62,379 bases of DNA, taken from the IMG/VR virus record IMGVR_UViG_3300011415_000001, positions 1 to 62,379 of that record, one strand, 5' to 3'. The position numbers and the translations under genes were made by a program. Under the pieces are notes generated by a model. It saw only the letters and a program-made list of their open reading frames with translations. It ran no database searches and was not told the origin of the DNA. Below are positions 13,583 to 42,155 of this stretch, piece after piece. Source of the DNA: a virus (Duplodnaviria > Caudoviricetes). Within the stretch, counting starts at the first letter, position 1, and each line of letters begins with the position of its first letter.

Positions 13583-13589
13583 AGAGGTA

Positions 13590-13712
13590 GCGACGCGCGC
13601 CGGACCTTCTGTGGCGAGCGAACATCGCTCGTGCGCCGCGGCAGCCCATAGGCTCGTTCCAAGAAGGACCGACGACCTGCCGAAGCACAGAAATCCACCC
13701 AGCGCGCGCCGC
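13590..13712 (-). ncRNA. Candidate structured RNA element (multibranch) upstream of the holin-like gene
   Basis: Long closing stem GCGGCGCGCGCUGG..GGAUUUCUGUG / CACAGAAGGUCCGGCGCGCGUCGC enclosing several hairpins. Confidence 0.4.
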
Positions 13713-13718
13713 CATGCG

Positions 13719-14531
13719 TTACTTCTTCATCGCTCCGAGGTCGGCGATCGGCTGTCCGGTGTCGTCCCACACGTTGCCGACGCGCAAGAGCTGATCCGCG
13801 GAGCAGTCCGTTTCGAGCAGCTTGTACTGGTAGTCCCGGCCGAATCGGTTGTAACTTAGCGAGCAGTGGGTCGGCGGCCCCTTGCCCTTGTCCGTGAAGT
13901 ACACGCAGTAGCCGCCGCCGTTGAGCCAGCAGTACTCGACGCTCACGTAGCTGATCGGGCCGTCGCCTGTTTGGATGATCAGCGCCGCGTTCGACCGGAA
14001 CGTCCCGCCGCCGCCGGCCGCCGCATACGCCGCGTAACCGGGCGTCCCGGGCGCGGGCATGTTGATGTTGCAGCGGAAGTACCGCGAGTGTGATCCGAGT
14101 CGCTGCTGCACACCGTCGGCGTGGGCATCCACTGCCATGCCGAGATGGTGGAAGTAACAGAACTCGGCGAGCGCGCCACCAGACTGGTCTTTGAACGCGT
14201 CCGCGCCGCAGTGGTGGATCTCGACGCGCTTCAAGTGCGCCGGTGACTGCGCGTAAATTCCCGCGCTCGACGCGTTCCTGACCCGCCCGTGCGCCGTAGA
14301 GAACTCCTCGACGCCCGGCTTGACGTGGATCCCGTATGCTCCACCCTTCGCGTCGAGCTCGTAGTCCTCGATGGTGACGTCGTGAGCTTCGACGACGATC
14401 TGACCGTCGATCTTCACGGCCGAAAGCCTCGTGCCATCCTTCGTGATCGTCATGCTGTCCATCGGCTTGAGCACGACTCCGGCGCGCGGGCCGGTGTTCT
14501 TCTCTGTCGGTCGCCTGTCGGTGATTGTCAT
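13719..14531 (-). CDS. Right-handed beta-helix protein in the lysis cluster
   Basis: PTEKNTGP start motif; ITKDG, VTIEDY, HADGVQ, CWLNGGGY, YNRFGR. Confidence 0.75.
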   Translation of the reverse strand: MTITDRRPTEKNTGPRAGVVLKPMDSMTITKDGTRLSAVKIDGQIVVEAHDVTIEDYELDAKGGAYGIHVKPGVEEFSTAHGRVRNASSAGIYAQSPAHLKRVEIHHCGADAFKDQSGGALAEFCYFHHLGMAVDAHADGVQQRLGSHSRYFRCNINMPAPGTPGYAAYAAAGGGGTFRSNAALIIQTGDGPISYVSVEYCWLNGGGYCVYFTDKGKGPPTHCSLSYNRFGRDYQYKLLETDCSADQLLRVGNVWDDTGQPIADLGAMKK

Positions 14532-14911: not shown

Positions 14912-14925
14912 GGGCGAGCACTACC

Positions 14926-15297: not shown

Positions 15298-15319
15298 GCA
15301 CCAATCCCCGCGTCGGGCG

Positions 15320-15469
15320 CTACTGCCCCTTCGGCAACTGCTGCACGAGCATGTAGACGCAGATCAGAAGCACCGGAATGCACCATCCCCACGGGTACGT
15401 GGCCTGCTTGACCGCCGCCAGAATCGTGCAGATGAAGGCGGCAATCGCGAGAATGATTAGAACGGTCAT
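15320..15469 (-). CDS. Small 2-TM membrane protein
   Basis: MTVLIILAIAAFICTILAAV...WCIPVLLICVYMLV; RBS AGGAG. Confidence 0.6.
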   Translation of the reverse strand: MTVLIILAIAAFICTILAAVKQATYPWGWCIPVLLICVYMLVQQLPKGQ

Positions 15470-15516
15470 GTTCTTGGCTCCTATTTCTCCCTGTCCGAGT
15501 CCTGGTCGTTCCATTC

Positions 15517-15876
15517 CTATGCCCGGTCATCCAGGCGTTCGTTGCCGCGAGGCGTTCTCGGCCCGAGGTCGCCGATCCGCGCGTGATTGGTGCGCCCGAA
15601 GTAGAACCCGACGACGAGAAAGAACGCGGACTCCAAGAGCAGGCTCTTGCTTCTGTCGTCGGATGCCTTGGAGAACCACTGCACGAAGACGTAGATGATA
15701 TTCGCCGCGACCACGCCGATCGCGATGGATGCCTGGGTCATCTCCCAGACCATGTTCAGCTTTCGCTGTCCCGCGGTGCGGAGGTCCTGTTCGCTCGTCG
15801 TAGTGGGCGGAACGGACGGCTGCGCCGGGGCGGCGGCATCCGCGTTGACCGTGGTGTTCGCTTTGTTCTCGACCAT
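15517..15876 (-). CDS. 2-TM holin-like protein
   Basis: Two TMs ending FFLVVGFYFGR, a holin-like C-terminal motif. Confidence 0.6.
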   Translation of the reverse strand: MVENKANTTVNADAAAPAQPSVPPTTTSEQDLRTAGQRKLNMVWEMTQASIAIGVVAANIIYVFVQWFSKASDDRSKSLLLESAFFLVVGFYFGRTNHARIGDLGPRTPRGNERLDDRA

Positions 15877-15992
15877 CACGCAACCCCACTCCATGCCGGC
15901 ACAAGGCGCCGCATTCCACCCCGAATCCCTAGCCCACAGCCGAGTAGGGTAGAATCGCCCTCCCCGTCCAATGCCATCCCAGGAGCGATCAA

Positions 15993-16727
15993 GTGAACTT
16001 CCGAACCGCCTCTCTCGTCACCGCCCTCGTCGCATCTCTCGTCGCGAACCTGCGCTCGCCGGCCCCACAGATCGGCGGGGACGTTCGCGAGTTTCTCTCG
16101 CACGTGCGCATGGTCGACATGCCGGACGGCTACGGGGGAATGGTCCGCACCGTGCGCATCGAAGGGCTGAACGTGCAGATCGTCAACGGCCTCGGGCGCA
16201 CCGAGGGAGTGAACGCGAGCGGGAATCTGATCATCGGCTACGCCGAGAACCCGCTGAACAATCCGCCGATGCGCGTTGGCTCGCACAACTTGATCGTCGG
16301 GCCGGGACACAACTACGGGCCGGCCGCGTACGGAGGCGTCATCTTCGGCGTCGAGAACACGCTGCTTGGCCCTTCCGGCTCGGTCACGGGCGGGCACCTG
16401 AATCGGGCGGCATGCCACTACTCCTCGATCACTGGCGGCAGCGAGAACGCCACGGCCGCGAACGGCGCCGTCGTGAGCGGCGGGCACGGCAACACAGCAA
16501 TCGGCGGGGACACGTGGGTCGGCGGCGGCGAACACAATGTCGCGGCCGGCGCTAGCTCCGCAATCGTTGGCGGAGCGAACAACCGCGCGGACGGCCCCCT
16601 CTCCACGGTCAGTGGAGGAACTGCGAATGACGCCACCGGCTCCGGTTCTAGCGTAAGTGGTGGCTTCAACCGCAGCGCGATCAGCTTCGATGACTGGGTC
16701 GCCGGATCGCTCTTCGAGGATCAGTGA
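15993..16727 (+). CDS. Secreted protein with SxSGGxxNxAxG beta-roll repeats (inverted moron)
   Basis: Signal-peptide-like N-terminus; NVQIVNGLG...GNLIIGY...GSHNLIVG; about 7 tandem 14-aa repeats; RBS AGGAG. Confidence 0.75.
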   Translation: MNFRTASLVTALVASLVANLRSPAPQIGGDVREFLSHVRMVDMPDGYGGMVRTVRIEGLNVQIVNGLGRTEGVNASGNLIIGYAENPLNNPPMRVGSHNLIVGPGHNYGPAAYGGVIFGVENTLLGPSGSVTGGHLNRAACHYSSITGGSENATAANGAVVSGGHGNTAIGGDTWVGGGEHNVAAGASSAIVGGANNRADGPLSTVSGGTANDATGSGSSVSGGFNRSAISFDDWVAGSLFEDQ

Positions 16728-16738
16728 GCGGAGTTTCA

Positions 16739-17440
16739 TCAGCGGGAGAACTGCACGTAGAAGTCGATTGCCGACGTCTCGGCCGTGTGCACCCAGAGCG
16801 TCGGCGGATCTCCCGCGTCCCACTCGTAGTACACGGGGAAACCGAGAACGGCGTGCAGGCCGCCATCCGCGGCGGTCGAGCTCGGGGATGCGCGCAGCAG
16901 TTTCGTGGGCGTGGCAGCCACGCTTTCCACGTTCGGATTGATGATCCAGAGCTGTGTTGCGCCCTGTGGGATCAGCACGTCAGGATCAGCTCCGGCCGCG
17001 AGCGTCGCCCCGGCCCACGAGGCATTCGACAAGTCATCCGCAACCTGGATGAGATTCCCATCGGCGCCGCCGCGGCGGGCTGTAGCCGTCATGACGCCCG
17101 CCACATTGGAGCCAACGACGTCCTCGTTTCGCCTGGTCGAGAGCGAGAACGTGGTTAGTCCGGCGGTCTGGTTCAGGGCATCCTTTGTGTTCGTCCCCAT
17201 CGCCGTCACGTCCGCCCCGATCTTGATCTGGTTCGGGATGCTGTTCGTGATCGTGTCCTTGTACGTGTAGACCCGCGTGCCGCTCGGGCCGATGACCGTC
17301 ATGGTCTGCCCGTCCGTCGGCAGTCCGGTGAACGTCAGATCGCGCGCGGCAGCCGCCCCAGCGGAGGCAGGACCGATCTTTTTCGGCCCCGTGTTGATCA
17401 CGGTGTAATTGTCGATCGCGGGCCTCGAGATCCTGACCAT
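16739..17440 (-). CDS. Probable virion structural/decoration protein
   Basis: Insert LTFTGLPTDGQTMTV...IKIGA...TATARRGGADGN...LAAGAD resembles a beta domain common in phage tail proteins. Confidence 0.6.
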   Translation of the reverse strand: MVRISRPAIDNYTVINTGPKKIGPASAGAAAARDLTFTGLPTDGQTMTVIGPSGTRVYTYKDTITNSIPNQIKIGADVTAMGTNTKDALNQTAGLTTFSLSTRRNEDVVGSNVAGVMTATARRGGADGNLIQVADDLSNASWAGATLAAGADPDVLIPQGATQLWIINPNVESVAATPTKLLRASPSSTAADGGLHAVLGFPVYYEWDAGDPPTLWVHTAETSAIDFYVQFSR

Positions 17441-18675
17441 CAGAAGGCCTCCGCGTTGTTGAAAGCAATCGCGTTGTAGTCGGCAGGGTCCTTGTTCTCG
17501 TCGTGGTCAGCAATGCACCCGGAACGCAGGACCGAGCCGGACGAATCGGTGATGAGCTCGTTGTTGTACTCGCCCGTGCTTCCGTTCCACTTCCGCGCAC
17601 CGATGCGACAGTTTCGGATCCGGTTGTTGATGACACTGCTCGGGAGCGTCGTGCCCCACTGGAATGTCGTATTGCCACCGAGGACCCAGCAGCTACGGAT
17701 GAGGAAGTTCTCGATCAGTCCATGATCCGGCGTGCCGTCTATCTGGAAGCAGGCGTTGTATCCGTACCCAGCCGGCTTAGCCGAGTAGGCCAGATTGAAG
17801 AAGCAGCGATAGGCGTCGAAGTTGCGCAGGATCCACGCGCTCTGCTTCTGCGTGGCGTCGCCGTGGACGCCGCTCTGGTACTGCCCGTTCGCGCCGATTT
17901 TTTCGATGTAGCAGGACTCAAGGCGGATACCCCGGCCGTTCAGCGTCAGGAAGTCCGCGCCAACGTCATGGATATGGCAACGCAGGAAATAGACGTCTTT
18001 GAAGTAATCGCCGTAGTTCAGGAACACCTCGTACGAGAGCGAGAAGTGCCCGAGTGCGCCATCGTTTCCAAGCTCGCAGTCGATGAAGGCGAGACCGCTC
18101 CTACCGTTGTCGAGCTTGACGCTGTAGTCGCCGGAGACCGTGCGCTTGAACCAACAGTGATCGAGCGTGACGTCGTCCGCCTTGATCGTGGTCTGTCCGT
18201 CGAAGATCAGACCGTAGTAGGTGCCGGACGAAGTAATGTTGCCGGTCCAGGTCTGCGTGGCAAACCCATGGTGCCCTGTGTTCGTTGCGCTCGGCTTCTC
18301 GGCCGCTCGCTCGCACGTGAGCGTATGCACGTTCGTCACGCCTATGTTCGTGTACCCGTTGTCGACGAGCGTGATGACATAGGTTTCGCTCGTGTCGAGG
18401 TTCTCGTTCACGAGGATCGGAACGGAGAACGTCGTGGCACCGGCCTGGACGATGAACTCGTTACTGGCGTCGAGGTCGCGGATAATCCAGTCGAAGTCGT
18501 AGCGCCCCGTCCCGCCGGTCGAGACGCGAATGGGGAACGCCGTGGTCGCGGCCGGCGTGATGGTCCCGGTGACCTCTGTGTAGAGCCCGACGTCATCCTT
18601 GATTGTCGCCGCTGCGGACGAGAATGCGATCGTGGGCGTCGGCGTGATCTTGGTCGGCCAGATCGGTAGAGCCAT
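17440..18675 (-). CDS. Calx-beta/Ig-like domain plus right-handed beta-helix (putative tailspike depolymerase)
   Basis: PTIAFSSAA...AGATTFSVPILVN...ETYVITL, then PSATNTG, VTLDHC, HGDATQ, CWVLGG. Confidence 0.7.
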   Translation of the reverse strand: MALPIWPTKITPTPTIAFSSAAATIKDDVGLYTEVTGTITPAATTAFPIRVSTGGTGRYDFDWIIRDLDASNEFIVQAGATTFSVPILVNENLDTSETYVITLVDNGYTNIGVTNVHTLTCERAAEKPSATNTGHHGFATQTWTGNITSSGTYYGLIFDGQTTIKADDVTLDHCWFKRTVSGDYSVKLDNGRSGLAFIDCELGNDGALGHFSLSYEVFLNYGDYFKDVYFLRCHIHDVGADFLTLNGRGIRLESCYIEKIGANGQYQSGVHGDATQKQSAWILRNFDAYRCFFNLAYSAKPAGYGYNACFQIDGTPDHGLIENFLIRSCWVLGGNTTFQWGTTLPSSVINNRIRNCRIGARKWNGSTGEYNNELITDSSGSVLRSGCIADHDENKDPADYNAIAFNNAEAF

Positions 18676-18679
18676 CGCA

Positions 18680-18922
18680 TCAGCCTCCCGCGCCCGTCAG
18701 CGCATCGAGCAGGGCAATCAGTGCGTCCGCGGCGATCGGCACGGATGACGTGGATCCGCGCGTGATCGTCGCCACCGTGGACCAAGACGGTTCGCCGACG
18801 CCGTCCGTCCCGGCCTTCTCGATCACGTAGCCAGTTCCATCGGACTTGACGAGCAGGCGGTGATTCGTGATCGCCACGCCCGCGGTCACAGAGTAATTCT
18901 GAACGAGTGCGGCTTGGGGCAT
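18680..18922 (-). CDS. Small hypothetical protein, possibly structural
   Basis: Start overlaps the sulfatase stop (TGATG). Confidence 0.6.
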   Translation of the reverse strand: MPQAALVQNYSVTAGVAITNHRLLVKSDGTGYVIEKAGTDGVGEPSWSTVATITRGSTSSVPIAADALIALLDALTGAGG

Positions 18923-20694
18923 CAGGCGAACTCCGCGAGAAGGGCGTCCATGTCGGCGCGAACGATCGCGAGCTGACCCGAGAAGTTCGAGTCGGCGATG
19001 ATGTTCGTCTGCTGGTCCCAGTCGGACGATGCGGGTGAGCCGGCCGATGTGCCGATCCGGTAGAACTCCTCGGTCGTCAGCTTCGTCGTCGAGCTGTAGA
19101 TGCGGAGCAGCGAGTAGAGCCCAGCGGCATTTCCCGTGTACCCGTCGCCCGAGCGGATGTAGCGGTGGAACGCGCGCTCGCGGCGCACCTCGGATGCGAG
19201 AAGCCCCTGGCTATCGACGTCGTCGGGATCGCCGTTCGGCTTGAAGTACTCGACGAGGCAGTGTTTCTTCGTGTGCGCGTCGATCCCGTGGTTCGAGTTC
19301 TGCAGCGCGGGCAGGATCGACGTGCCATCCGTTGGCTGCGAGCCGCCCACCTGCGAATAGGGCACGTGCATGATGTTCCGGAACGTCTCGAAGAGATCGA
19401 CGTGGATGTCGACCGGGATCGGCGACGTGCGCGGGAGCGTGCCGGCGCAGGCGGGGCCCTGCACCCAGAGCGGAACCCACGAGCCGAGGTTGTAGACCGT
19501 GCCTTTCGACTTGTCGACGAGGTTCCCGAAGTCGCCGATCGTCGGGTTTCCGACGTCATCGTACAGTGCCTTGACGCCTTTCAGGATGCCGATCTCCGTC
19601 CCGTTGTCGGAGGTGACGAAGATGTTCGTCCGCGACTTGATCGAGGCGGTGATCCCGTTCACGAGGTTGCCGAATTCGACGTCGACTGCCTCGCGCATCG
19701 AGCCGTAGTACGCCCACGCCTGGACGGCGGAGTTCGCGTGCCCGTACTGGTTCGTGTAGACCGAGCGGACCGTGTAGCCAGCGAGCGCGGCATCGTGAAA
19801 TGGCGCGTGTGGCAGGTTGAATGCGACGACACAGACCCAGGGCTGGTTCGCCGGATCGTTCATCCATTCGAGAGCCTTCTGGACCTTCACCTTGTCGAGG
19901 TACTGCGCGGCGCCGTTGTAGAGCGTCGAGGCCGCGTCCCCCTTCGCGCGCGCGTAGTACCCGCCGTTGTTTCCCTGCGCGGTCGCGACGCCGTAGCTAC
20001 CGTACGGGCTCACTCCGTTGTAGGGCTGCGGCTTCGTGCCGGCGTTCTTGAGAATCGCCCACCAATGGGTCCACTTGCCGACGCTGTCGAGGTGCGACCA
20101 TCCGGATGCTGGGATCGCTGTGCCGCCCGGAGTCGTCGTGTTCTCGACCGTGTTCAGCGGATCGACCGTCGCATCTGTTCCACCCCAGAGATCGAGGTGC
20201 CACTTGCCGAAGAAGCCCGACTGGTAGCCCGCCGCCGCCGCGATCTCGGCCAAGACGTACTCACGCCGCTGGACATAGCCGGCCGCCCCCGGGGCCGCGA
20301 CGTCGACGCCGAACTCGCCGAGCGCGTTGCCGACCCCGCCGACACCACGGTCGAGAGCGATGATCGAGCCTACGCCTGTGCGCGATGCGTAGCGGCCCGA
20401 GTACATGCCCGCACGCGTCGGCGAGCAAACTGGGTTTGAGCGCGCCTGATAGAACTGGACGGTCGCGCCGTTGTGGAACGCATCGAGATTCGGCGTGTTC
20501 GCGTAGACGCCCTTGTTGAAGAGATCCGTCTCGGTCCCGACGTAGCCTTCCGCTCCGAAGATCGAGTCGTATTTCCGGCACTGATCGACGCCCATGTCGT
20601 CGAAGTAGCAGAGCAGGATGTTGTCTTTGCGCTGTTCGATATCGACCGTCACCTTGACGCTCGGAGTCGCGGCGTTCGTGCTGACTTCGACCAT
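18922..20694 (-). CDS. Type I (formylglycine-dependent) sulfatase
   Basis: NILLCYFDDMG, TPNLD, CSPTRAGMYSGRY (CxPxR), FFGKWHL, PHAPF, SDNG, KSKGTVY..GSWVPL; no signal peptide. Confidence 0.92.
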   Translation of the reverse strand: MVEVSTNAATPSVKVTVDIEQRKDNILLCYFDDMGVDQCRKYDSIFGAEGYVGTETDLFNKGVYANTPNLDAFHNGATVQFYQARSNPVCSPTRAGMYSGRYASRTGVGSIIALDRGVGGVGNALGEFGVDVAAPGAAGYVQRREYVLAEIAAAAGYQSGFFGKWHLDLWGGTDATVDPLNTVENTTTPGGTAIPASGWSHLDSVGKWTHWWAILKNAGTKPQPYNGVSPYGSYGVATAQGNNGGYYARAKGDAASTLYNGAAQYLDKVKVQKALEWMNDPANQPWVCVVAFNLPHAPFHDAALAGYTVRSVYTNQYGHANSAVQAWAYYGSMREAVDVEFGNLVNGITASIKSRTNIFVTSDNGTEIGILKGVKALYDDVGNPTIGDFGNLVDKSKGTVYNLGSWVPLWVQGPACAGTLPRTSPIPVDIHVDLFETFRNIMHVPYSQVGGSQPTDGTSILPALQNSNHGIDAHTKKHCLVEYFKPNGDPDDVDSQGLLASEVRRERAFHRYIRSGDGYTGNAAGLYSLLRIYSSTTKLTTEEFYRIGTSAGSPASSDWDQQTNIIADSNFSGQLAIVRADMDALLAEFA

Positions 20695-20697
20695 GGA

Positions 20698-21153
20698 CTA
20701 GATGCCCCTCGTGACCTGGGTGTTCACATCGAAGTTTCCTTCGACGAGCGCGAGGATGTAGTCCTTCGCGACCGTGATCTTGCCGACGCCCACCATGTCC
20801 CAGACGCCCGATGGAATCGCTGGAGTGGCGCCCTGAGTCTTCAGACCGGTCTCGGCCGCGGAGATCGTGAGGACCACTCGGCCAAGGGTCGCCGGCTGGG
20901 TAATCGTGACGCCTGTCCCGGGGAAAACGGCGCCCGCCACAGAGGGGTCCTTGCAATCGAAGAGCGGCGGGTCGGCCGACGCGATCGTCTGCCGGAACAT
21001 CGCGCGCATCCCCTGGGCGAGCGCGTTCGTCACGGGATCGAAGGGTGAGAGGTCGATCGGATCGCCCGCGGCATCGACCATGTCGATGGTGATCGTGAAC
21101 GTGGTGTAGGCGACGATCGCGCGCGTGCCCGTCAGGTTGAGCGATCCCGGCAT
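20698..21153 (-). CDS. BppU-like baseplate/fibre adaptor
   Basis: TFTITIDMVDAAGDPIDLS...G.VVLTISAAET...VWDM...LVEGNFDVNTQVTR. Confidence 0.65.
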   Translation of the reverse strand: MPGSLNLTGTRAIVAYTTFTITIDMVDAAGDPIDLSPFDPVTNALAQGMRAMFRQTIASADPPLFDCKDPSVAGAVFPGTGVTITQPATLGRVVLTISAAETGLKTQGATPAIPSGVWDMVGVGKITVAKDYILALVEGNFDVNTQVTRGI

Positions 21154-21218
21154 CGACTACGAATCCCTCCCCGGTCGAGCCTCGCCGAGCGATGGGCCCG
21201 CGAGCGAGCCCGGGCCCC

Positions 21219-21241
21219 GATGTTTACCGTCGTGGATGGCG
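21219..21241. promoter_or_regulatory. 23-bp motif, copy 1 (GATGTTTACCGTCGTGGATGGCG)
   Basis: 21/23 identical to 45756-45778; both copies intergenic and upstream of late structural units. Confidence 0.6.
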
Positions 21242-21243
21242 GT

Positions 21244-22323
21244 CTAGGCGTTCGAGAGCCCGACGATCAGGATGCTCGTGCCTGCGGCCACGGTCGCCAC
21301 GGTCGCCGCGCCAGAGCGAATCTGGCCGGTCAGCTTGTACTTGTAAGAGGCACCCGGCGAGGCGAGGAAAAAGCCGTTGACCGTGTTGCGATCGAGGCTC
21401 GTGTTGCTCGCATCGACGCAGCATTCCTTGCGGCTCCCCGTGAGCACTGCGAAGGTCCCCGTATTCGGATCCTGGGTGATCTCGACGCTCACCTGAGCCT
21501 GCCCGCTGACAGTCGCGTTCAGTTGGACCGAGTAGAAAACGAGCATCGCCACCTGTGCATTCGCGACGGTGATCACGTTCGAGGCGAGCGAGAACGTGCT
21601 CGAAGCTAGGACCGTCGTGCCGAGGAGGAGGTCCGTGTCCGATCCTGAGGCGAGCGTGACCGCGCCGCCGTAGTACATGGCGTAGTGGACGCCGAGGCCT
21701 GTGATCAGGTTCGCGATCGACTGGAGCGCAGTCAGCTCAGCGATGTCCGCTCCGGCACCGACCGATCCGAGGAAGCGATTCGCCGCCGCGACGTTCTGGA
21801 GCTTCCCGTATGGGATCGCGTCGTTTGCGAATGCCGTCGATGAGAGCTGAGCTCCGCCGTTCGAGTTCGAGTGGTCGTGGTTCGCGTTCGAGAAGCTGCC
21901 GATGATCGGCGTCGATAGTGTCTTCGCGCTCAGTGTCTCAGGGCGCGTCAGAGTGGCAATCCTGTAGCGCGTCGCCCCGGGCGTGATGAAGAAGTCGGTG
22001 CCATCGAACTCGATCGCCCCGGCCTCGGGAGTCGTGAGGCTCGTTCCGGACGCGAACTTGAGCGGCGCCTCACCGGCACCGGCGGACCCTGCCCGAAGAG
22101 ATATCTTCTTGTTCGAAAGGTCCTGCGAATCGCCTGTGCCAACGATGGCGCCTGAAACTCCGTGTGTCGACGTGTCCGCTTCGTGACTGGCAAGGTTCGC
22201 AACGCCAGTGACGAGCGCCGCGTCGACTTCCTCGAGAACGCTCTGCACGTCGCGTTGGTTGAACGCAGTCCCAGTCTTATCGAAAGGGACGGTTTTCGAA
22301 TCAATGTTGCGTTCGCCACTCAT
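21244..22323 (-). CDS. Tail fibre protein
   Basis: Start MSGERN at 22323; fibre motifs QDLSNKK, EAGAIEFDG, ETLSAKTL, HDHS; beta-rich C1q-like C-terminus. Confidence 0.7.
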   Translation of the reverse strand: MSGERNIDSKTVPFDKTGTAFNQRDVQSVLEEVDAALVTGVANLASHEADTSTHGVSGAIVGTGDSQDLSNKKISLRAGSAGAGEAPLKFASGTSLTTPEAGAIEFDGTDFFITPGATRYRIATLTRPETLSAKTLSTPIIGSFSNANHDHSNSNGGAQLSSTAFANDAIPYGKLQNVAAANRFLGSVGAGADIAELTALQSIANLITGLGVHYAMYYGGAVTLASGSDTDLLLGTTVLASSTFSLASNVITVANAQVAMLVFYSVQLNATVSGQAQVSVEITQDPNTGTFAVLTGSRKECCVDASNTSLDRNTVNGFFLASPGASYKYKLTGQIRSGAATVATVAAGTSILIVGLSNA

Positions 22324-22745
22324 AGCGCTGCCTGCGTCGTGCGCAGGATCCATCCGGTGACCGAGAGGTACTTGGCCGTCGCCGTCGACGTGTCCGCGTA
22401 GGCTGCGACCGTCCAGGTCGTCGCCGCCGTGAAGCGCAGTCGTTCGCCGGCGAGGATCCATACCCAGCTCTTCTCTGGCACCTGGTACTTGACGACCGCG
22501 GCATCGATGTCCGTCGTACCAGTCGTCGTCGCCGGACTGATCGAGACGACTACGTCGTGCCGGTTGACGTCGTTGTTCCAGACCTTCAACCAGATGGTAT
22601 CGAGCTGGTCTGCCGTTGCATCGACGAGGTGGAGTGGCGTCACGTCCGAGGCAATCGTGTAGTCGTTCACGATCTGAATCGGGCGGCCGTTCGTGGCGAA
22701 CGATAGATCGTCAGCCCATACAAGGTCCTGGGGAACCGCTGTCAT
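22320..22745 (-). CDS. Small virion structural protein
   Basis: Beta-rich; coupled between the tail-tip and fibre genes. Confidence 0.6.
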   Translation of the reverse strand: MTAVPQDLVWADDLSFATNGRPIQIVNDYTIASDVTPLHLVDATADQLDTIWLKVWNNDVNRHDVVVSISPATTTGTTDIDAAVVKYQVPEKSWVWILAGERLRFTAATTWTVAAYADTSTATAKYLSVTGWILRTTQAAL

Positions 22746-25700
22746 GCGTACACCTCACCTCGGAGGAAAGTATCGTAGGTCGATCGGCGCGTGAGAGCCG
22801 TGCGTCGTTGGCGCACACGCGTACGGAAACTGTGGATCTTCACCTGGTAGGACGTGTTCGGCCGCGTGACGACGAGTCGGAACTGCGCGGCGGCGATGCT
22901 TACAAGGCCCGGGCGGAAGTCGAGCCATGCGCTCCAGTCTCCCGCCGCTCCGCTCGTGTTCACTCTCACCTGAATCGTGATCGTGCAGTTTGCGATCTCG
23001 CCGGGCAGGAGATGCGTCGGTCCCTCCCACGTCCACCGTAGGTTCTTCTCGTCTCCCCAGCCAAACTCCGCCATGTCCCAGGTCAGCGGGTGGACTTGCT
23101 CGGCGACGACTGCCGCCTCGAGAAAGCTCTCGCGCGGGAGCTGCGTCGCGATCGTCGCGGGGTTGTCGGGATCGCCGATCGTGTAGGTGGCCGTCAGCGC
23201 GGAGCCGGCGAACTCGAGGTAGCCACTCGTCACCTGCAGGTCTGTCACGAACGGATCGCCCGCGGGCGGAACGGCCTGCACCCAGCCGGTGCCGAACGCC
23301 TCCCATGCCTGATCGTTCCAGCGTTGCGAGTGTGCGACTGGGTGCACCGGAGGGGTCGGAGAGAAGGAGAGCGTGACCGCCTCGCTGTACTGCCCGATCT
23401 CGTTTCTGCACCGGAAATAGAGCGTGGGGCTACCGACCGTCGCACCCGACCAATCGCGCGTCGGGCCGAAGGAGAGCGCGCCGCGCTCGGAGAGGAAGAC
23501 GACCGGCGCGAGGATCCAGCCTCCGCGCCGGCACTCCACGCGGTTCCCCTCTTGTCCGGCCGGAAGCGTCCAGGTGTAGACCACCTTGTCGTCGACCATG
23601 TTGGCCGCGAGGTTCGCGGGCGCACCCGGGTAGGCGCCGATGCCGATGAAGGTGTGCCGGCGCTTGGGGCAAGCGATCGGATCGAGGCGCTTGCCAGCGT
23701 GCGATCGCGTCTGGAGCGCGATGAAGAGCCGGTCGCCCGTCTCGACCTCCTGTACCGGGAACTCGGCCTCGGTCGCTGTCCCGTCGATCGCGTAGACCTG
23801 CCTCCAGGTCTGCCCGTCCTTCGAGAGGAAGATCGCGGTCGCGCCGACGTGGGTGAGCGTCGAAAGCTCGTGACTCCAGGAGACGCGGAGCATGGGGGTG
23901 AAGACGCCGCTCCGGTTCCTCACGAGGAAGTCGTCGACGCTCGTGATCGTTGGTTCAAGGGGCAGGATGTCGACGAGCCCGCCGGTTCCTCCGCCGCCCA
24001 CCGTGAGAAGCGTGTCCTGTGTCAGCTCATCGAGCTCGTCGTCGTAGATGATGTCGAGGTACTCGACGAACTCGATCGCGCGCGACTTGTCATCCTCAAG
24101 CGTGATCCGCCCGATCTCGACGTCCAGGTGCTCGCCTTCGACGCAGAGGATGAAGGGCGTCCCCTTCGGGATCGGGTCCGGCGGCTCGTCGCCGGTCACC
24201 ATGTAGATCGAATCGCCTGCGAGGTGCGGACCGACCCCAGTCGTCGGCTCGTGCACGCGCGGCGCGTTGAACGAGTCCGTAGCCTTATCCCACCAGTAGA
24301 GGATGTAGACCTTCGTCCCGTCGATATGGAAGTCACGGTCGGAAACCAGTTGATCCGCCCCCGGCGCATCCGTGAGCGCGCGGCCAGAGACCATTTCGGC
24401 ATAGCGCCGCCCACCCGATTCGACGAGCGTGCGCGGCAGAATGTCGTGGGCGAGCCGGACCACGTCGCCGGGCTCGAAGTGCAGCGCCTCCGGGCCAAGC
24501 CGGAACGAGCCGTGGCGCACGAGGTCCTGGTACATGTTCGTCTGGAAGAGCCCCGCGCGAATAACTTGCCCGCGACTCGTGACGAATGGCATGAACGTGT
24601 GCTCGCGCCGGAGGCTCTCGATCCCCTGATCGTTCCCGACCGATCGATGCACCGCGTCCGCGGTCGAACGCTCGTAGTCGAGCTCGCGGTCGAGGAACCC
24701 AATCTCGAGCGCGTTCGGCGAGCTTTTGCCACCGCGGTATCCGATCTTGAACGAGCCCTTGCCAAGCGAGCCCATGCCTATCGGTGCGAGCGGCGTGCGC
24801 GGGCGCGCGAATTTGAACCGGAGCTTACGGCCATCTCGGATCGGGACGGCTCGGCCCACCTTGGCGGCCTCGATCAGCGCGTCCCACGCCGGCATCTGCG
24901 CATCGAACGCGCCGTTGAACTCGAAGCGCCGCTCGCCGCCTGTCGAGAGCCCAGTCGTTGCCGACCCGAAAACCGTGTCATGCCGCTGCCCGCTCGTCCA
25001 GGGATCGCCATCGGTGAGGAGTCGATCCCAGTAGACCTCGACGATCCAGACGTTACCGAGATTGACGGCCCCGTGCGTGCCGCCGTACATGATCTGCTTG
25101 ATCTCGTAGCCGCCTGAGGTGTTGGAGCCGAACTCGCCCTGATTGATCTCGGGGTTCGCGCCGACCTGCTGGACGCCGTGGAAGCGGACGAAGTCGCCGA
25201 CCTTCCAGTCCGAGGGCGGAGAAACCGTCTGCGGAGAGATGTCGAAGACGATCCAAAGGGATCCGCGCGTGTCGCCGTCGTCGTCCTGCGTGTCGTTGAA
25301 GTAGTAGAGGACTTCCCACTCGCCTCCGATGTCCGGTCCGATCTGGGCCGTGCCGTCGTACACGACCTCATCGCAGTAGTCGGCCCACGCCGCATGCTCC
25401 TCGAGGTCGATGTCTTTGAGCGCGTAGTAGCGGCCGAGGCCGTAGCGCTTGTTCGTCGCGATGTCGAGCGCGACCCATGCCGGATTCGCCGACCAGGCGT
25501 AGTGAAAGGTCGGGAACTCGGTCGAGTCGCGGTTCCAGATGGGAACGACCATGCCCTGTACTTCGCATGTGATGCGCGGGATCGTCGTGTTCAGCGCCTT
25601 CGAGGCCGGGATCTTGAGCGCGAGCAGCGGCTCGTTCGGGTAGGAAAGCAGCTCGTCCAGGATCGAGAAGGCGATGCCCCATTTCGCGTCATCTTGGACG

Positions 25701-27658
25701 AGGTTGTGCGTGGAGTCTGGGTTCACGCGCACGCAGTCCACGCGATAGCGCGCTCGTTTGAGCGTGCCCGATTCCCCAGAGAGGATGTGACCCGCAGCGG
25801 TTCCCGCGGTCGCGCCATTCACGAGCGTCGCGTCGCCCATCCAATGGCCGCTCGTGAGCTGTTGGCGGCCGTCGATGTCCCACGTCCACCAGCTTCGGAG
25901 CTCTGTTCCGATCGTGCCGTAGACGCCCGCGCCGTTCGAGTAGCGCTGGCGGATCTCGGTCGCCGAAATCTCGCGATGGAAGAGGAGCGTATCGTCCATC
26001 TGCCCGTCGAAGTTGTAGGTCGCGAGCGAGACTGCGTTCCGCCCCCAGTAGTGCGTCGAGGCGCCCCACACGAGAGGCACCGGCGCGATGTGGTGCCGCA
26101 CCGCCTCGCCGTTCCAGTAGAGCTCGACCTGCTCGTTCGTCCCGCTCGCGTCCTTTTGGAAGGTGAGCGCGATGTAGTTCCAGGTCCCGACGACGATCGT
26201 CATTTCGTAGTCGGCGTAGATGTAATCGGTCGTATCCGATGTTCCGACCTGCAATCGGGCGGCAGCGACAAACGTGAACTGCGACTGGAGGAAGTTGAAC
26301 GACGAGCGCAGGCAGAGCGACACGCCTCGGCGGTCGGTGTTGGTGTAGTTGCCGAAGAGGTGAATGGTCTCACCGGCCGCCGCCGGTGTCGGGAGCGACT
26401 CGGGGAAGAACCAGCACTCGATCGTGAGCACGTCGACGGAGTCGGTCACGGCGAATGGGAAGGAGCCGTTCCGTGCCGCAGTCGCATGCTGATTCGCGCC
26501 GCCCGAGTTCTCGACGTCGAGAGCTTTGCCGAGCGCGGGCGGCACGTAGTTCGCCTTGTCGAAGAAGCGGATGGTGTGGTCGACCTCGAGCGCGCCGCGC
26601 TGCACGATCCCCGTCAGGATCAGCGGCGGCAGTCGCACGTAGCCGTCTCCGAGCGGACCCCCCGTCGTGATCGGCACGCCACCGGAGTCGAGCTCGATGT
26701 AGCGCGGCTGGAAGTAGAAGTTCGTGCCGATCAGGTCCCCGTCCGATTCGGCGCGGAAGAGGCCGGACTCGCATCGCAGGCGAATCACCGCGCCATCGAA
26801 CTCCTCCGCGAACGAGAACGAGACCTTGTAGAGGTCGAAGGTCGAATCCCCCGCGGTCGTAAAAAAATCCGCGAAGTTCGCGCTGCCCGGCAACCCACCG
26901 TAGGCGAAGCCCGAGTTGTCCGCCTGGATCGTCGTCGCCGCGCCGAGCACCTGCTCGACCGAGAACGCGGTCTGGATCTCGTGGAACTCCTCGATGGGCT
27001 CCTGCTCATTGGTGCCCATGCGCACCTGAGCCTCGATGCCCGGGTAGTTCTCGCCCTGATTGTCCTCGACCTTGATGCCGGTCGGGAGGTCGCCGTTCGC
27101 GACCGAAAGCCATTTCGTCGAGTCGCTCGTGCGCGATCCGATGGCGTAGACGGGCCCCTCGCCGAAGGAGATCAGCGTGTAGAGGACGGTGTCGGGCGGG
27201 ATGTTCCGGACGCGCGTGAACTCGGAGATGACCGTCCCGCCGACGCGCACCTTGCCGTAGATCACGGCGATCGGCAGGCCCTCGGAGCGGATGTTCGAGA
27301 TGCCCGAGAAGCCGTAGGTCGGTGAATCCTCGTCGCTTCGGCTCTTCGGCGGACCCGGCGGCGGGAAGAGGAGCATGATCGCGAGCGAGACCGCGGCGGA
27401 GACGAGCACGCCTGCGAGCACGGTGGCGAGCGTGACGCCCGTGAAGTCGCGCGGGCGCACGACGAAGGCGAACCAATCGCCGTCGACCACTGGGGAGTAG
27501 AGGTTCGATGGCGAGCCGTTGCGCCAGACGCCGATGTCGGATGGATCGATTCCTTGCGGCAGGAGGTCGAGCGCTTGCCGTGCGCGGCCCGCCTCCTCCA
27601 CGATGGTCTCCCGCTTCGCCGGTTCGAACGGGTTTCGGATGATGAGCACGCGGATCAC
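22742..27658 (-). CDS. Central tail-tip protein (lambda gpI/J-like, TipJ) with an inserted LamG domain, 1638 aa
   Basis: True start GTG 27658 (IIRNPF); SPTYGF...GLPIAVIYGKVRVGG; YPNEPLLALKI; WSANPAW...NKRYGLG; EPGDVVRLAHD; Fn3-like C-terminus. Confidence 0.88.
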   Translation of the reverse strand: MIRVLIIRNPFEPAKRETIVEEAGRARQALDLLPQGIDPSDIGVWRNGSPSNLYSPVVDGDWFAFVVRPRDFTGVTLATVLAGVLVSAAVSLAIMLLFPPPGPPKSRSDEDSPTYGFSGISNIRSEGLPIAVIYGKVRVGGTVISEFTRVRNIPPDTVLYTLISFGEGPVYAIGSRTSDSTKWLSVANGDLPTGIKVEDNQGENYPGIEAQVRMGTNEQEPIEEFHEIQTAFSVEQVLGAATTIQADNSGFAYGGLPGSANFADFFTTAGDSTFDLYKVSFSFAEEFDGAVIRLRCESGLFRAESDGDLIGTNFYFQPRYIELDSGGVPITTGGPLGDGYVRLPPLILTGIVQRGALEVDHTIRFFDKANYVPPALGKALDVENSGGANQHATAARNGSFPFAVTDSVDVLTIECWFFPESLPTPAAAGETIHLFGNYTNTDRRGVSLCLRSSFNFLQSQFTFVAAARLQVGTSDTTDYIYADYEMTIVVGTWNYIALTFQKDASGTNEQVELYWNGEAVRHHIAPVPLVWGASTHYWGRNAVSLATYNFDGQMDDTLLFHREISATEIRQRYSNGAGVYGTIGTELRSWWTWDIDGRQQLTSGHWMGDATLVNGATAGTAAGHILSGESGTLKRARYRVDCVRVNPDSTHNLVQDDAKWGIAFSILDELLSYPNEPLLALKIPASKALNTTIPRITCEVQGMVVPIWNRDSTEFPTFHYAWSANPAWVALDIATNKRYGLGRYYALKDIDLEEHAAWADYCDEVVYDGTAQIGPDIGGEWEVLYYFNDTQDDDGDTRGSLWIVFDISPQTVSPPSDWKVGDFVRFHGVQQVGANPEINQGEFGSNTSGGYEIKQIMYGGTHGAVNLGNVWIVEVYWDRLLTDGDPWTSGQRHDTVFGSATTGLSTGGERRFEFNGAFDAQMPAWDALIEAAKVGRAVPIRDGRKLRFKFARPRTPLAPIGMGSLGKGSFKIGYRGGKSSPNALEIGFLDRELDYERSTADAVHRSVGNDQGIESLRREHTFMPFVTSRGQVIRAGLFQTNMYQDLVRHGSFRLGPEALHFEPGDVVRLAHDILPRTLVESGGRRYAEMVSGRALTDAPGADQLVSDRDFHIDGTKVYILYWWDKATDSFNAPRVHEPTTGVGPHLAGDSIYMVTGDEPPDPIPKGTPFILCVEGEHLDVEIGRITLEDDKSRAIEFVEYLDIIYDDELDELTQDTLLTVGGGGTGGLVDILPLEPTITSVDDFLVRNRSGVFTPMLRVSWSHELSTLTHVGATAIFLSKDGQTWRQVYAIDGTATEAEFPVQEVETGDRLFIALQTRSHAGKRLDPIACPKRRHTFIGIGAYPGAPANLAANMVDDKVVYTWTLPAGQEGNRVECRRGGWILAPVVFLSERGALSFGPTRDWSGATVGSPTLYFRCRNEIGQYSEAVTLSFSPTPPVHPVAHSQRWNDQAWEAFGTGWVQAVPPAGDPFVTDLQVTSGYLEFAGSALTATYTIGDPDNPATIATQLPRESFLEAAVVAEQVHPLTWDMAEFGWGDEKNLRWTWEGPTHLLPGEIANCTITIQVRVNTSGAAGDWSAWLDFRPGLVSIAAAQFRLVVTRPNTSYQVKIHSFRTRVRQRRTALTRRSTYDTFLRGEVYA

Positions 27659-28089
27659 TGACCACCCCCCAAGAGCACGGGTATGGTCGAGGCGAGGCGC
27701 GCCGCATGGGTCAGCCGGTAGACCCCGACGATCCCCTGGACACGGCGCACGGGCAGCGAGTGGACCCCGTGCTCCTTCGTCGATGTGAGGACCAGGCGGT
27801 TCCGCTCGTCGACGAGGCAGGAGACGTGGTAGCCGCGCTCGCCGTGGGAGAGGATCACGTCGAGGAGCTCCGAGGCGATGACGCTGGAGGCCCCCAGGAA
27901 GCGCCAGGGCGAGGGCAGCTCGGTCTCTGCCGTCCACTCGCGCGGCATGTCGGCCGGTGCGAGGACGTGGCCCCCGCGCGCGTAGGCGATCTTGAGCGCC
28001 CCGACGCAGTCGAGGCCGGTCGCGCTGTCCTCCCCGCCCTCGGCCCACTTGATCTCGAGGAGGTCCCGGTAGTCGATGGCGCGATTCAT
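27655..28089 (-). CDS. Tail-tip NlpC/P60-like protein (gpK-like)
   Basis: W.EGG...GLDCVG...HV; position between the L and J homologs. Confidence 0.75.
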   Translation of the reverse strand: MNRAIDYRDLLEIKWAEGGEDSATGLDCVGALKIAYARGGHVLAPADMPREWTAETELPSPWRFLGASSVIASELLDVILSHGERGYHVSCLVDERNRLVLTSTKEHGVHSLPVRRVQGIVGVYRLTHAARLASTIPVLLGGGQ

Positions 28090-28775
28090 CGCCGGCCGAT
28101 CCTTCCAGCCGGCGGGATTCCGGGCTTGCCCCCAAAGCGCTTGGGATGCTGCCTCACGAGCCCGCGCGCGACCTCGTCGTCTCCCCTCGCCCGGCAGTCC
28201 TCGAGCGTGAAGCCGCAGGTCGTGAAGGCCCCGCCCACGCCGAGGATGTACCCGCACTCGGGCGAGCCGAAGGGTGCCCAACGGCAGTGGCGCTTGGTGT
28301 GCACGTAGGGTGGGAAATTCGTCTTCGCGAGGTTGTAGGCCCCGAGCGAGAAGGTCGCGACGAGCGGGGTCATCGAGGCCGAGACCACCTCGAGATCGAT
28401 CCGGAACGTGCCCTCGGTGTTCTCCGGATCGAGCGCCGAGATCACGCGGATGATGGCGGGCTGCCCAATGAATCCGCCCGCCGCTTCCAGTCGCGGCGCG
28501 AGCTCGAGCGAGAGGTTCGCGACGTTGACCTCGATCGTCGGGATGTCGCCGCTCCCAGACTCGATGATCCCGGAGTGTGTGATCGGCGCGGGGTAGTAGG
28601 CGATCGGGGCACCCGCCGAGTTGACGCCGTGGTAGACGCGCTCGTTCGCCTTCGCGTACCGGAACCGCTGGGGCGGATCGTCGGTGGTCTGGATCTCGTA
28701 GAGGAAGATCAGGGGCCACTCGGACTCCATCTGATTCTTGTGCTCGGTCAGCACGTCGCTGAGAGTCTTCGGCAT
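28086..28775 (-). CDS. Tail-tip protein L-like
   Basis: C-terminal CRW...ECGY...CGFTLEDC...RFGG.PG four-Cys motif as in lambda gpL. Confidence 0.8.
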   Translation of the reverse strand: MPKTLSDVLTEHKNQMESEWPLIFLYEIQTTDDPPQRFRYAKANERVYHGVNSAGAPIAYYPAPITHSGIIESGSGDIPTIEVNVANLSLELAPRLEAAGGFIGQPAIIRVISALDPENTEGTFRIDLEVVSASMTPLVATFSLGAYNLAKTNFPPYVHTKRHCRWAPFGSPECGYILGVGGAFTTCGFTLEDCRARGDDEVARGLVRQHPKRFGGKPGIPPAGRIGRR

Positions 28776-42154: not shown

Positions 42155-42155
42155 G

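What the first reader, a model, noticed from the sequence alone, without database searches (positions are those of the whole stretch)
16739..21153. Candidate novel system: a virion-module sulfatase paired with a beta-helix depolymerase
Seen: after the tail fibre comes a tightly coupled unit of BppU-like adaptor, 590-aa sulfatase, 80-aa protein, Ig plus beta-helix protein and a structural protein, with its own upstream motif and hairpin. The sulfatase keeps the type I motifs (DD, CSPTR at 20413-20427, GKWH, PH, SDNG, K). It has no signal peptide and begins with a short beta-strand-like segment (MVEVSTNAATPSVKVTVDIE) that could dock on the adaptor. Established: type I sulfatases need Cys-to-formylglycine conversion by FGE or anSME, and I see neither encoded, so a host maturase would be needed. 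Known tailspike enzymes are mostly glycosidases, lyases and esterases. Inference: the virion desulfates and then cleaves a sulfated capsule or EPS, making infectivity dependent on a host post-translational modification.
Basis: partly seen in the sequence, partly recalled or inferred. Interest (0 to 1): 0.92.

Follow-up and report, generated by a model that had tools for sequence, protein, structure and literature searches.

The report
Phage sulfatase beside tail-fibre genes
An uncultured tailed phage carries an apparently working sulfate-removing enzyme and a sugar-chain-cutting enzyme right after its tail genes, which may mean the virus strips a sulfated coat off its host, but nothing yet shows that the enzyme rides on the virus particle.

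Summary
The observation largely holds. The window is a complete 62-kb phage. Downstream of the J-like tail-tip gene lie five minus-strand genes separated by 3, -1, 4 and -1 nt. One is a 590-aa S1 (formylglycine-type) sulfatase with every catalytic motif intact. It has no signal-peptide-like stretch, and the phage encodes no FGE or radical-SAM maturase. The 411-aa neighbour is a Calx-beta domain plus a right-handed beta-helix from a carbohydrate-active family.

The whole block is syntenic in one related contig, where the sulfatase is the best-conserved gene. A complex prediction gave only weak support for binding to the upstream 151-aa protein.

Against the virion reading, the 51%-identical homologue in an unrelated phage sits between a helicase and a primase, with no partner genes. 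"BppU-like adaptor" is only a language-model lead. "Structural protein" and "tail fibre" could not be verified. The hairpin is not exceptional.

Verdict: a real and rare phage sulfatase. Virion attachment is plausible (about 0.4) but unproven. This scan noted a Dit-fused phage sulfatase on other DNA (e1-5911266), which I did not check.

The parts
22742..28135 (-). J-like central tail fibre / host-specificity ORF (context; the upstream boundary of the region)
   Evidence: phrog_31 central tail fiber J at 1e-64; PF13550 Phage-tail_3 at 7e-11; PF13385
21244..22461 (-). Its C-terminal half is 46% identical in L090.
   Evidence: no match in Pfam, PHROGs, PDB or phage records
21219..21240 (-). 22-nt motif shared with the region upstream of the portal gene (45756-45777), followed by a GC-rich 7-bp hairpin
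   Evidence: 2 matches against 0 expected; sequence read; hairpin not exceptional; absent from L090
20698..21153 (-). 151-aa small protein, a candidate tail adaptor (lead only)
   Evidence: 4 relatives at 48-57% identity. ESM Atlas: nearest clusters are 75-100% viral, with LtfC in 26% and BppU_N in 11% of members. The weak complex signal with the sulfatase depends on this chain. AF2 model poor.
18922..20694 (-). 590-aa S1 formylglycine-type sulfatase, no signal peptide
   Evidence: PF00884 at 1e-21; catalytic residues invariant; 42 PDB hits at E<=1e-8, all named sulfatases, the best being the S1_16 kappa-carrageenan sulfatase 9fo1 at 3e-24
20413..20427 (-). CSPTR, the formylglycine target motif (residues 90-94)
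   Evidence: translation; C90, P92, T93 and R94 invariant
18680..18922 (-). 80-aa protein of unknown function; its start overlaps the sulfatase stop by 1 nt
   Evidence: the L090 homologue is 144 aa, and by eye looks like a tandem duplication
17440..18675 (-). 411-aa protein with an N-terminal Calx-beta domain and a right-handed beta-helix (putative glycan-active enzyme); D241, H271, D273, Q276 invariant
16739..17440 (-). 233-aa protein of unknown function; its start overlaps the preceding stop by 1 nt; 31% identical in L090
   Evidence: no match
13719..14531 (-). 270-aa free paralogue of the beta-helix domain, inside the lysis-like cluster
   Evidence: BLASTP against the 411-aa protein: 24% identity, E 3e-7; PF13229 at 0.0026, below the cut-off

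Best explanation
A late-expressed two-enzyme unit that acts on a sulfated surface glycan of the host, probably carried on the tail.

The 590-aa protein is a Cys-type S1 carbohydrate sulfatase. It is made in the cytoplasm without a signal peptide, and a host FGE or anSME would have to convert Cys90 to formylglycine there. In this phage lineage it has gained a conserved extension of about 24 residues at the N-terminus. It is translated together with a 151-aa phage-type small protein, which I take to be its docking partner on the tail tip, and with a Calx-beta/beta-helix glycan-active enzyme.

On contact with a new cell, the sulfatase would remove sulfate esters that block or decorate a capsule, EPS or LPS glycan. 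The beta-helix enzyme would then cut or remodel the chain, giving the J-type tip access to the envelope.

Shown: the enzyme family, intact catalytic residues, absence of a signal peptide and of a maturase, gene order, tight coupling, conserved synteny, and the fold of the beta-helix partner.

Inferred: maturation by the host, the substrate, the order of the two reactions, and above all the presence of these proteins in the virion.
For: - Family and active site.
- The gene lies in the late arm, between the J-like gene and membrane proteins that look like lysis genes.
- Gene spacing is 3, -1, 4 and -1 nt.
- The whole J-to-233-aa block is syntenic in L090. Identities from the tblastn alignments are 64% for the sulfatase against 31-56% for its seven neighbours, so the sulfatase is the best conserved.
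- The N-terminal extension is present and alignable in the 3 window-lineage sequences (the window, P0002, P0003). It is absent from P0005, P0006 and P0007. P0002 is 99.7% identical to the L090 protein.
- The 151-aa protein's nearest Atlas clusters are 75-100% viral. Some members carry LtfC (26%) or BppU_N (11%); these are leads only.
- Complex prediction, with three chains and my own alignments, so unlike the calibration. Median ipSAE was 0.40 (runs 0.39, 0.63, 0.40) and the best of 3 controls was 0.00, including 0.00 when the 151-aa chain was replaced. The verdict was weak support. The mark was reached by 58 of 80 solved complexes and 2 of 110 mismatched pairs. At 0.60 or under it was reached by only 7 of those 80 and by both mismatches that passed. 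The runs agree in at least 35% of contacts, and the partner's pLDDT is at least 89.
- The neighbour is extracellular in type. Calx-beta was confirmed in 3 of 3 N-domain relatives tested. Beta-helix relatives are fused to GH16, to Laminin_G_3 plus BACON_2, and to DUF4962 plus heparinase II/III C-terminal domains.
- The 22-nt motif is shared with the region upstream of the portal gene.
Against: - The 51%-identical homologue (L002, P0005) lies between an SNF2-type helicase and a prim-pol/DUF3987 primase, with DNA methyltransferases nearby.
- None of the 22 other window proteins tested matched in the L002 locus. The 31.7-kb record, estimated 67% complete, has no member of the beta-helix family. 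The sulfatase therefore works without these partners in that phage.
- The sulfatase is the most similar gene the two phages share. The others are a RusA-like gene at 32% and methyltransferase stretches at 28% and 43%. This points to a mobile cargo gene.
- No virion-anchor family was found on the sulfatase or on any neighbour.
- The beta-helix has a free paralogue among the lysis-like genes, which suggests soluble enzymes.
- The complex support is weak by the tool's own calibration, which says such a pass is more often wrong than right unless the guess was likely beforehand.
- The motif is not conserved in L090.
- There is no proteomic, expression or host information.
Confidence: 0.4

Rival explanations
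1. Soluble late enzymes, not virion parts. The sulfatase and the two beta-helix proteins accumulate in the cytoplasm late in infection and are released at lysis. They then degrade the sulfated matrix or capsule around the lysed cell and its neighbours, which helps progeny escape and spread. Free phage depolymerases and receptor-destroying enzymes work this way.
For: There is no signal peptide and the gene lies in the late arm. A free paralogue of the beta-helix sits inside the lysis-like cluster. No anchor domain was found. The L002 homologue stands alone with no N-terminal extension.
Against: The extension specific to the window's lineage is conserved. The gene is tightly coupled to a small phage-type protein. 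There is a weak but control-clean complex signal: 0.40 against 0.00, with the counts given under the best explanation.
Confidence: 0.3
2. An auxiliary metabolic or cargo gene. The phage lineages picked up a cytoplasmic sulfatase horizontally. It frees sulfate or a desulfated sugar from an imported or internal sulfated compound during infection, or it has some other intracellular target. Its place next to the tail genes is then an accident of where the gene inserted.
For: The gene moves between unrelated phages and modules. Seven further IMG/VR contigs carry stand-alone sulfatase ORFs of 418-562 aa; at 21-32% identity they are only distant relatives. All 7 of 7 have an intact C-x-P/A-x-R motif, GKWH and DNG. 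The passages I read describe phage-borne FGE and AslB as auxiliary genes.
Against: The gene is in the late arm and is translationally coupled to four other genes. All five are kept together in L090, with the sulfatase the best conserved. Its neighbour has extracellular-type domains. The best solved relatives are polysaccharide sulfatases.
Confidence: 0.2
3. Not a working sulfatase in this setting. One possibility is that Cys90 stays unmodified and the protein serves as a binding module for sulfated glycans. Another is that it hydrolyses a different ester, such as a phosphate or phosphonate ester, as some members of this fold do.
For: No maturase is encoded. The L002 homologue sits among DNA-metabolism genes. 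NCBIfam gave a faint hit to the phosphoric/sulfuric ester hydrolase PehA (E 0.00056, far below its cut-off).
Against: All catalytic and metal-binding residues are invariant across a family that has diverged to 37% identity. All 42 PDB hits at E<=1e-8 are named sulfatases.
Confidence: 0.1

Closest known systems
Bacterial S1 (formylglycine-dependent) carbohydrate sulfatases. Solved examples are the S1_16 kappa-carrageenan sulfatase (PDB 9fo1) and a GalNAc-6-sulfate sulfatase (PDB 6ust).
   Same: The domain is PF00884. The C-x-P-x-R motif, the metal ligands (DD, DN) and the Lys/His catalytic residues are all present.
   Different: Identity to every cellular homologue listed is 39% or less, and no more than 29% for those covering over half the query. 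There is no signal peptide. A long family-specific insert lies between the GKWH and PH motifs. The gene is encoded by a phage in its late arm, and the same genome has no maturase.
Phage tailspike and tail-fibre depolymerases (right-handed beta-helix glycosidases, lyases and esterases; this class is recalled from general knowledge)
   Same: The position is downstream of the tail-tip gene. The neighbour has a beta-helix fold that gives weak Foldseek matches to a Klebsiella phage K64-1 capsule depolymerase and to phage pectate-lyase-like proteins.
   Different: The chemistry would be sulfate-ester hydrolysis. I found no paper that holds the words sulfatase, depolymerase and tailspike together. 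The beta-helix is short (about 270 aa), follows a Calx-beta domain and has no recognisable tailspike anchor. Whether it forms a trimer was not tested.
BppU N-terminal domain (lactococcal phage TP901-1 baseplate) and T5 LtfC. Their roles as adaptors that hold fibres are recalled, not tested here.
   Same: The size class is similar and the nearest clusters are nearly all viral. Members of those clusters carry PF23926 LtfC (26%) or PF10651 BppU_N (11%).
   Different: There is no sequence match to either Pfam model, no PDB sequence match, and my model was unusable.
Virus-encoded auxiliary genes of organosulfur metabolism (phage FGE and AslB, reported in metagenomic surveys)
   Same: A sulfatase-pathway gene carried by phages and moved between lineages.
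   Different: Here the gene is the sulfatase itself, not its maturase. It sits inside a conserved late block next to the tail genes.

Membership tests
S1 formylglycine-dependent sulfatase | Sulfatase (alkaline-phosphatase-fold) catalytic domain | tested here: met
   PF00884 at 1e-21, 78 bits against a cut-off of 25; 76.5 bits in the six-frame search
S1 formylglycine-dependent sulfatase | C/S-x-P/A-x-R target motif for formylglycine | tested here: met
   CSPTR at residues 90-94. C, P, T and R are invariant in the 6 family members; one member reads CGPTR.
S1 formylglycine-dependent sulfatase | Metal ligands (DD near the N-terminus, DN later) and catalytic Lys/His pairs. The roles of these residues are recalled from the arylsulfatase literature. 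| tested here: met
   D32 D33, K164 H166, H296, D363 N364 and K397 are invariant. The aligned blocks match the motifs of solved sulfatases.
S1 formylglycine-dependent sulfatase | Cys actually converted to formylglycine, and sulfate-ester hydrolysis | not testable with these tools
   The phage has no FGE or radical-SAM gene. The host is unknown.
SulfAtlas S1 subfamily | Assignment to a numbered subfamily | not testable with these tools
   No SulfAtlas models were on hand. The nearest solved proteins are labelled S1_16, S1_15, S1_19 and S1_8, all distant.
Virion-borne tail enzyme (tailspike/depolymerase type) | A recognisable virion-anchor domain, or fusion to a tail protein | tested here: not met
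   No Pfam, PHROG or NCBIfam tail family on the sulfatase or on the 151-, 80-, 411- or 233-aa proteins. The 'longer' length class was not searched.
Virion-borne tail enzyme (tailspike/depolymerase type) | Physical association with a tail component | tested here: inconclusive
   Complex prediction gave weak support: median 0.40, best control 0.00 (full counts are in the For line). Whether the 151-aa partner is itself a tail protein has not been shown.
Virion-borne tail enzyme (tailspike/depolymerase type) | Homologues consistently linked to tail genes | tested here: not met
   Linked in L090, which belongs to the same lineage. Not linked in L002, where the gene lies in the replication module.
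Right-handed beta-helix carbohydrate-active enzymes (for the 411-aa neighbour) | Beta-helix fold and family relatives with CAZyme contexts | tested here: met
   AF2 pLDDT 88.6. 16 of 27 relatives hit PF13229, but the window protein itself hits no family. Relatives are fused to GH16, BACON_2 and heparinase II/III C-terminal domains. Fold matches to solved enzymes are weak.
BppU_N / LtfC adaptor (for the 151-aa protein) | Match to PF10651 or PF23926 | tested here: not met
   No Pfam match even at E<=5. There are only Atlas feature leads, at 11% and 26% member shares.

The most novel reading that the evidence does not exclude
A tail-mounted formylglycine sulfatase. The phage particle would carry a two-step enzyme set: desulfation by the sulfatase, then cleavage by the Calx-beta/beta-helix enzyme. 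Its key residue must be created by the producing host's FGE or anSME. The infectivity of the progeny would then depend on a post-translational modification system of the previous host. This would be a new chemical class of virion-borne receptor-modifying enzyme.
Probability: 0.3. Interest if true: 0.8.

Novelty: new variant of a known kind. Interest (0 to 1): 0.55.

Why it matters
Known phage surface-glycan enzymes are glycosidases, lyases and esterases (recalled from general knowledge). A sulfatase would add sulfate esters to the host decorations that phages remove enzymatically. It would also point to sulfated capsules, EPS or LPS as phage barriers or receptors in environmental bacteria.

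If the enzyme is virion-borne, its need for a host maturase would create an unusual dependency: the quality of each particle would depend on the cell that produced it.

The family is small and divergent. It has six close relatives among 5.8 billion clustered proteins, and identity to any solved sulfatase is low, so it may have a new specificity.

If it is only a cargo gene, it is a modest addition to the list of phage auxiliary genes.

Tried and rejected
The contexts of P0006 (41-kb contig) and P0007 (6.5-Mb contig, signal-peptide-like N-terminus) remain unknown.
- INPHARED phage records: the sulfatase matched only one record, a 290-kb Salmonella contig annotated arylsulfatase (24.9% identity). 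There was no DNA match for nt 16000-24000. The 151-, 411-, 360- and 233-aa proteins had no tblastn match.
- IMG/VR scans with P0001, P0002, P0122 and A3 found nothing. Alignments A2 and A4 were too divergent for the pattern scan.
- The GTDB representative scan, which is limited by its search patterns, found no close homologue. The best was 26% identity at E 2e-22.
- Contexts of the other IMG/VR sulfatase contigs (L003-L009): of 10 neighbour ORFs scanned with Pfam, only a P22-type portal in L003 matched. Of 10 scanned with PHROGs, only two in L008 matched, an internal virion protein and a tail-fibre N-domain. In L008 the sulfatase and its three upstream ORFs start with signal-peptide-like stretches (by eye). 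I therefore read that case as secreted cargo, not as a tail enzyme.
- AF2 model of the 151-aa protein: pLDDT 39, unusable, so no fold search was made.
- PDB sequence searches with the 151-, 360- and 233-aa proteins gave only chance-level hits, with E 0.13 or above.
- Host inference: no tRNA and no tyrosine integrase. The capsid protein matched nothing in 5 genomes that hold distant sulfatase homologues. I stopped there, and the host stays unknown.
- Hairpin: rejected as a notable structure. No sigma-70-like promoter lies in 15500-23000, and the two terminator-like sites are within the number expected by chance.
- Literature. 'phage-encoded sulfatase' gave 0 papers. sulfatase + depolymerase + tailspike gave 0 papers. 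Among the 15 papers listed, none contains the word sulfatase. I read passages only, in these papers:
  - PMC9853417: bacterial sulfatases, with only a hypothesis about enzymes attached to phages.
  - 10.64898/2026.10.24.761521: AslB in huge phages.
  - PMC13581612: FGE-like sensor domains.
  - PMC10232697: phage FGE.
  - PMC11986028 and PMC13477221: the word appears only in their reference lists.
  All other papers were seen as search listings only. Supplementary files were not opened and may list viral sulfatases.

Full report
WHAT THE WINDOW IS. The 62,379-bp window is a whole IMG/VR virus record with direct terminal repeats, estimated 100% complete. GC content is about 65%. The late arm runs on the minus strand:
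- large terminase, 46781-48514
- portal-MuF fusion, 43352-45703
- major capsid, 40868-42355
- tape measure, 31977-35204
- a 1064-aa ORF, 28779-31973
- a gpL-like protein, 28086-28775
- a J-like ORF, 22742-28135 (phrog_31 at 1e-64, PF13550)

No tyrosine integrase and no tRNA were found.

THE OBSERVATION. After the J-like ORF come a 141-aa ORF and a 405-aa ORF, then a 90-nt spacer, then five ORFs at 20698-21153, 18922-20694, 18680-18922, 17440-18675 and 16739-17440. These are spaced by 3, -1, 4 and -1 nt. Four of the five have the high GC3 of real genes in my filter.

Downstream lie a plus-strand ORF and then membrane proteins that look like lysis genes.

The 590-aa protein matches Pfam Sulfatase at 1e-21. 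CSPTR falls exactly at nt 20413-20427. The N-terminus has no hydrophobic stretch; this was read by eye.

The complete phage has no FGE and no radical-SAM gene, and the control genomes rang in both searches.

The 22-nt motif in the spacer recurs upstream of the portal gene, with 2 matches against 0 expected. The hairpin next to it is real, but the spacer folds no better than shuffled sequence. The motif is missing from the syntenic relative.

THE SULFATASE FAMILY. Among 5.8 billion clustered proteins, only six are close: P0002 and P0003 (64%), P0004 and P0005 (51%), P0006 (41%) and P0007 (37%). The next hit falls to E 1.9e-22 and 28% identity.

In the alignment of six sequences, D32 D33, C90, P92, T93, R94, K164, H166, H296, D363 N364 and K397 are invariant. 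These correspond to the metal ligands, the formylglycine site and the catalytic Lys/His residues of S1 sulfatases; those roles are recalled from the literature.

A profile search of the PDB gave 42 hits at E<=1e-8, all named sulfatases. The best were an S1_16 kappa-carrageenan sulfatase (3e-24) and a GalNAc-6-sulfate sulfatase. The nearest solved enzymes are therefore carbohydrate sulfatases, but all are distant.

Pairwise identities sort the family into three groups:
- the window with P0002 and P0003. P0002 is 99.7% identical to the L090 protein.
- P0004 with P0005
- P0006 with P0007

Only the first group has the N-terminal extension of about 24 residues, and it aligns among its three members. 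P0007 begins with a signal-peptide-like stretch. P0005 begins directly at the first core strand.

WHERE THE RELATIVES SIT. L090, a metagenome contig, keeps the whole order: J, 141-aa, 405-aa, 151-aa, sulfatase, small protein, beta-helix protein, 233-aa. Identities are 47, 43, 46, 56, 64, 40, 34 and 31%. The sulfatase is the best-conserved gene of the block. L090 belongs to the same phage lineage, so this shows that the block is maintained. It is not an independent association.

L002 is an IMG/VR contig of 31.7 kb, estimated 67% complete. It carries the 51% homologue between an SNF2-type helicase (phrog_16 at 5e-93) and a prim-pol/DUF3987 primase, with DNA methyltransferases and a RusA-like gene nearby. 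None of the 22 other window proteins tested matches in that locus. The whole record has no member of the beta-helix family and no FGE. Apart from the sulfatase, the two phages share only a RusA-like gene (32%) and methyltransferase stretches (28% and 43%).

The sulfatase has therefore moved between unrelated phage lineages, and in one of them it works without the partners.

Seven further IMG/VR contigs carry stand-alone sulfatase ORFs of 418-562 aa that are only distant relatives. All seven have intact Cys-type motifs. Several of these ORFs have signal-like N-termini. In L008 the gene lies downstream of a tail-fibre N-domain gene, among ORFs that also look secreted.

No GenBank phage record has a homologue.

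THE NEIGHBOURS. The 411-aa protein has no direct family hit. An exhaustive HMMER search found 62 relatives.
- Residues 1-122 recur up to 25 times in giant proteins. Three of three such relatives tested are Calx-beta repeat proteins.
- Residues 120-390 occur as stand-alone proteins of about 300 aa and at the ends of proteins that carry GH16, Laminin_G_3 plus BACON_2, or DUF4962 plus heparinase II/III C-terminal domains.
- Sixteen of 27 aligned relatives hit PF13229.
- The AF2 model (pLDDT 88.6) shows a beta-sandwich followed by a beta-helix. Its N-domain superposes on Calx-beta CBD structures. Its helix gives weak matches to a dextranase, to alginate epimerase/lyases, and to phage depolymerase-like proteins.
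- D241, H271, D273 and Q276 are invariant.
- A 270-aa paralogue without the Calx-beta domain lies in the lysis-like cluster (24% identity, E 3e-7).

The 151-aa protein has four relatives at 48-57% identity and no family hit. My AF2 model was unusable. The ESM Atlas places it next to clusters that are 75-100% viral, some with LtfC (26% of members) or BppU_N (11%).

The 80-, 233- and 405-aa proteins remain unassigned.

THE BINDING TEST. I folded the 151-aa protein, the 80-aa protein and the sulfatase together, scoring the sulfatase.
- The verdict was weak support. Median ipSAE was 0.40 (runs 0.39, 0.63, 0.40).
- The best of three controls was 0.00. That includes 0.00 when only the 151-aa chain was replaced, so the signal depends on that chain.
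- By the tool's calibration, the mark was reached by 58 of 80 solved complexes and 2 of 110 mismatched pairs. At 0.60 or under it was reached by only 7 of the 80 and by both mismatches that passed.
- The runs agree in at least 35% of contacts, and the partner's pLDDT is at least 89.
- The job used three chains and my own shallow alignments, so these counts hold only roughly.

HOW IT MOST LIKELY WORKS. Three things are shown. The gene encodes an intact Cys-type carbohydrate-sulfatase-like enzyme. The enzyme has no export signal and is made from the late arm. It is translationally coupled to a glycan-active beta-helix protein with an extracellular-type Calx-beta domain.

It follows from established sulfatase biochemistry (recalled) that Cys90 must be oxidised by a host FGE or anSME, both of which are cytoplasmic.

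My inference is that the pair acts on a sulfated surface polymer of the host. I put about 0.4 on the enzymes being carried on the tail through the 151-aa protein. I put 0.3 on their being soluble late enzymes released at lysis, 0.2 on a cargo or metabolic role, and 0.1 on a non-catalytic role or a different chemistry.

The extension specific to the window's lineage, the coupling and the weak complex signal favour the tail reading. The L002 context, the free beta-helix paralogue and the lack of any anchor domain favour the alternatives.

COMPARISON AND NOVELTY. The protein meets every sequence-level criterion of the S1 sulfatases that I could test. It does not meet the testable criteria of a tail-borne enzyme: it has no anchor domain, and its homologues are not consistently linked to tail genes.

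I found no paper describing a sulfatase as a phage tail or depolymerase enzyme. The passages I read mention only phage FGE or AslB and bacterial sulfatases.

I did not test it, and it does not count as evidence here. It does show that the idea has come up before on other DNA.

I rate this a new variant of a known kind, phage-encoded enzymes against host surface glycans. Interest is 0.55. The gene and its setting are real and rare, but the striking part of the claim, virion carriage, rests on circumstantial evidence.

Noticed in passing
window 15993-16727 (+): A 244-aa ORF on the opposite strand, inside the late arm, with GC3 0.83. It has a hydrophobic N-terminus and Gly/Asn/Ser-rich repeats that recall adhesin-head or fibre repeats. 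The overlapping minus-strand ORF 15876-16823 is Arg-rich and looks spurious. The only Pfam hit was faint (LbR_Ice_bind, E 0.2).
   Followed up: partly
L090 11586-13064 (-): The syntenic relative carries a second, distantly related sulfatase-family gene on the opposite strand, just past its lysis-like genes. It has a twin-arginine-like signal, and the usual Pro of the formylglycine motif is replaced (it reads C-S-N-F-R). It could be a phage gene or flanking host DNA. The window has no counterpart.
   Followed up: partly
window 13719-14531 (-) and 12993-15894: A free 270-aa beta-helix paralogue sits among TM proteins and a lipoprotein-like ORF that look like lysis genes. I did not search the window for endolysin families.
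   Followed up: partly
P0151 (relative of the 411-aa protein): One relative of the beta-helix domain is fused to DUF4962 and a heparinase II/III-like C-terminal domain. Heparinases act on sulfated or acidic polysaccharides, so this family may deal with such polymers.
   Followed up: no
L008 3128-11521: An unrelated podovirus-like IMG/VR contig has, in order, an internal virion protein, a tail-fibre N-domain gene, three ORFs with signal-peptide-like starts, and an intact Cys-type sulfatase that also has a signal-like start.
   Followed up: partly
window 45756-45777 and 21219-21240 (-): A 22-nt motif occurs only twice in the genome, once upstream of the portal gene and once upstream of the sulfatase block. 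It could be a late promoter or operator. It is not found in L090.
   Followed up: partly
window 22742-28135 (-): The 1797-aa 'J' ORF also matches gpI-like tail-assembly families (phrog_32, phrog_4554) and the tail-protein family phrog_469 near its N-terminus. It may be several genes read as one, or a fusion.
   Followed up: no
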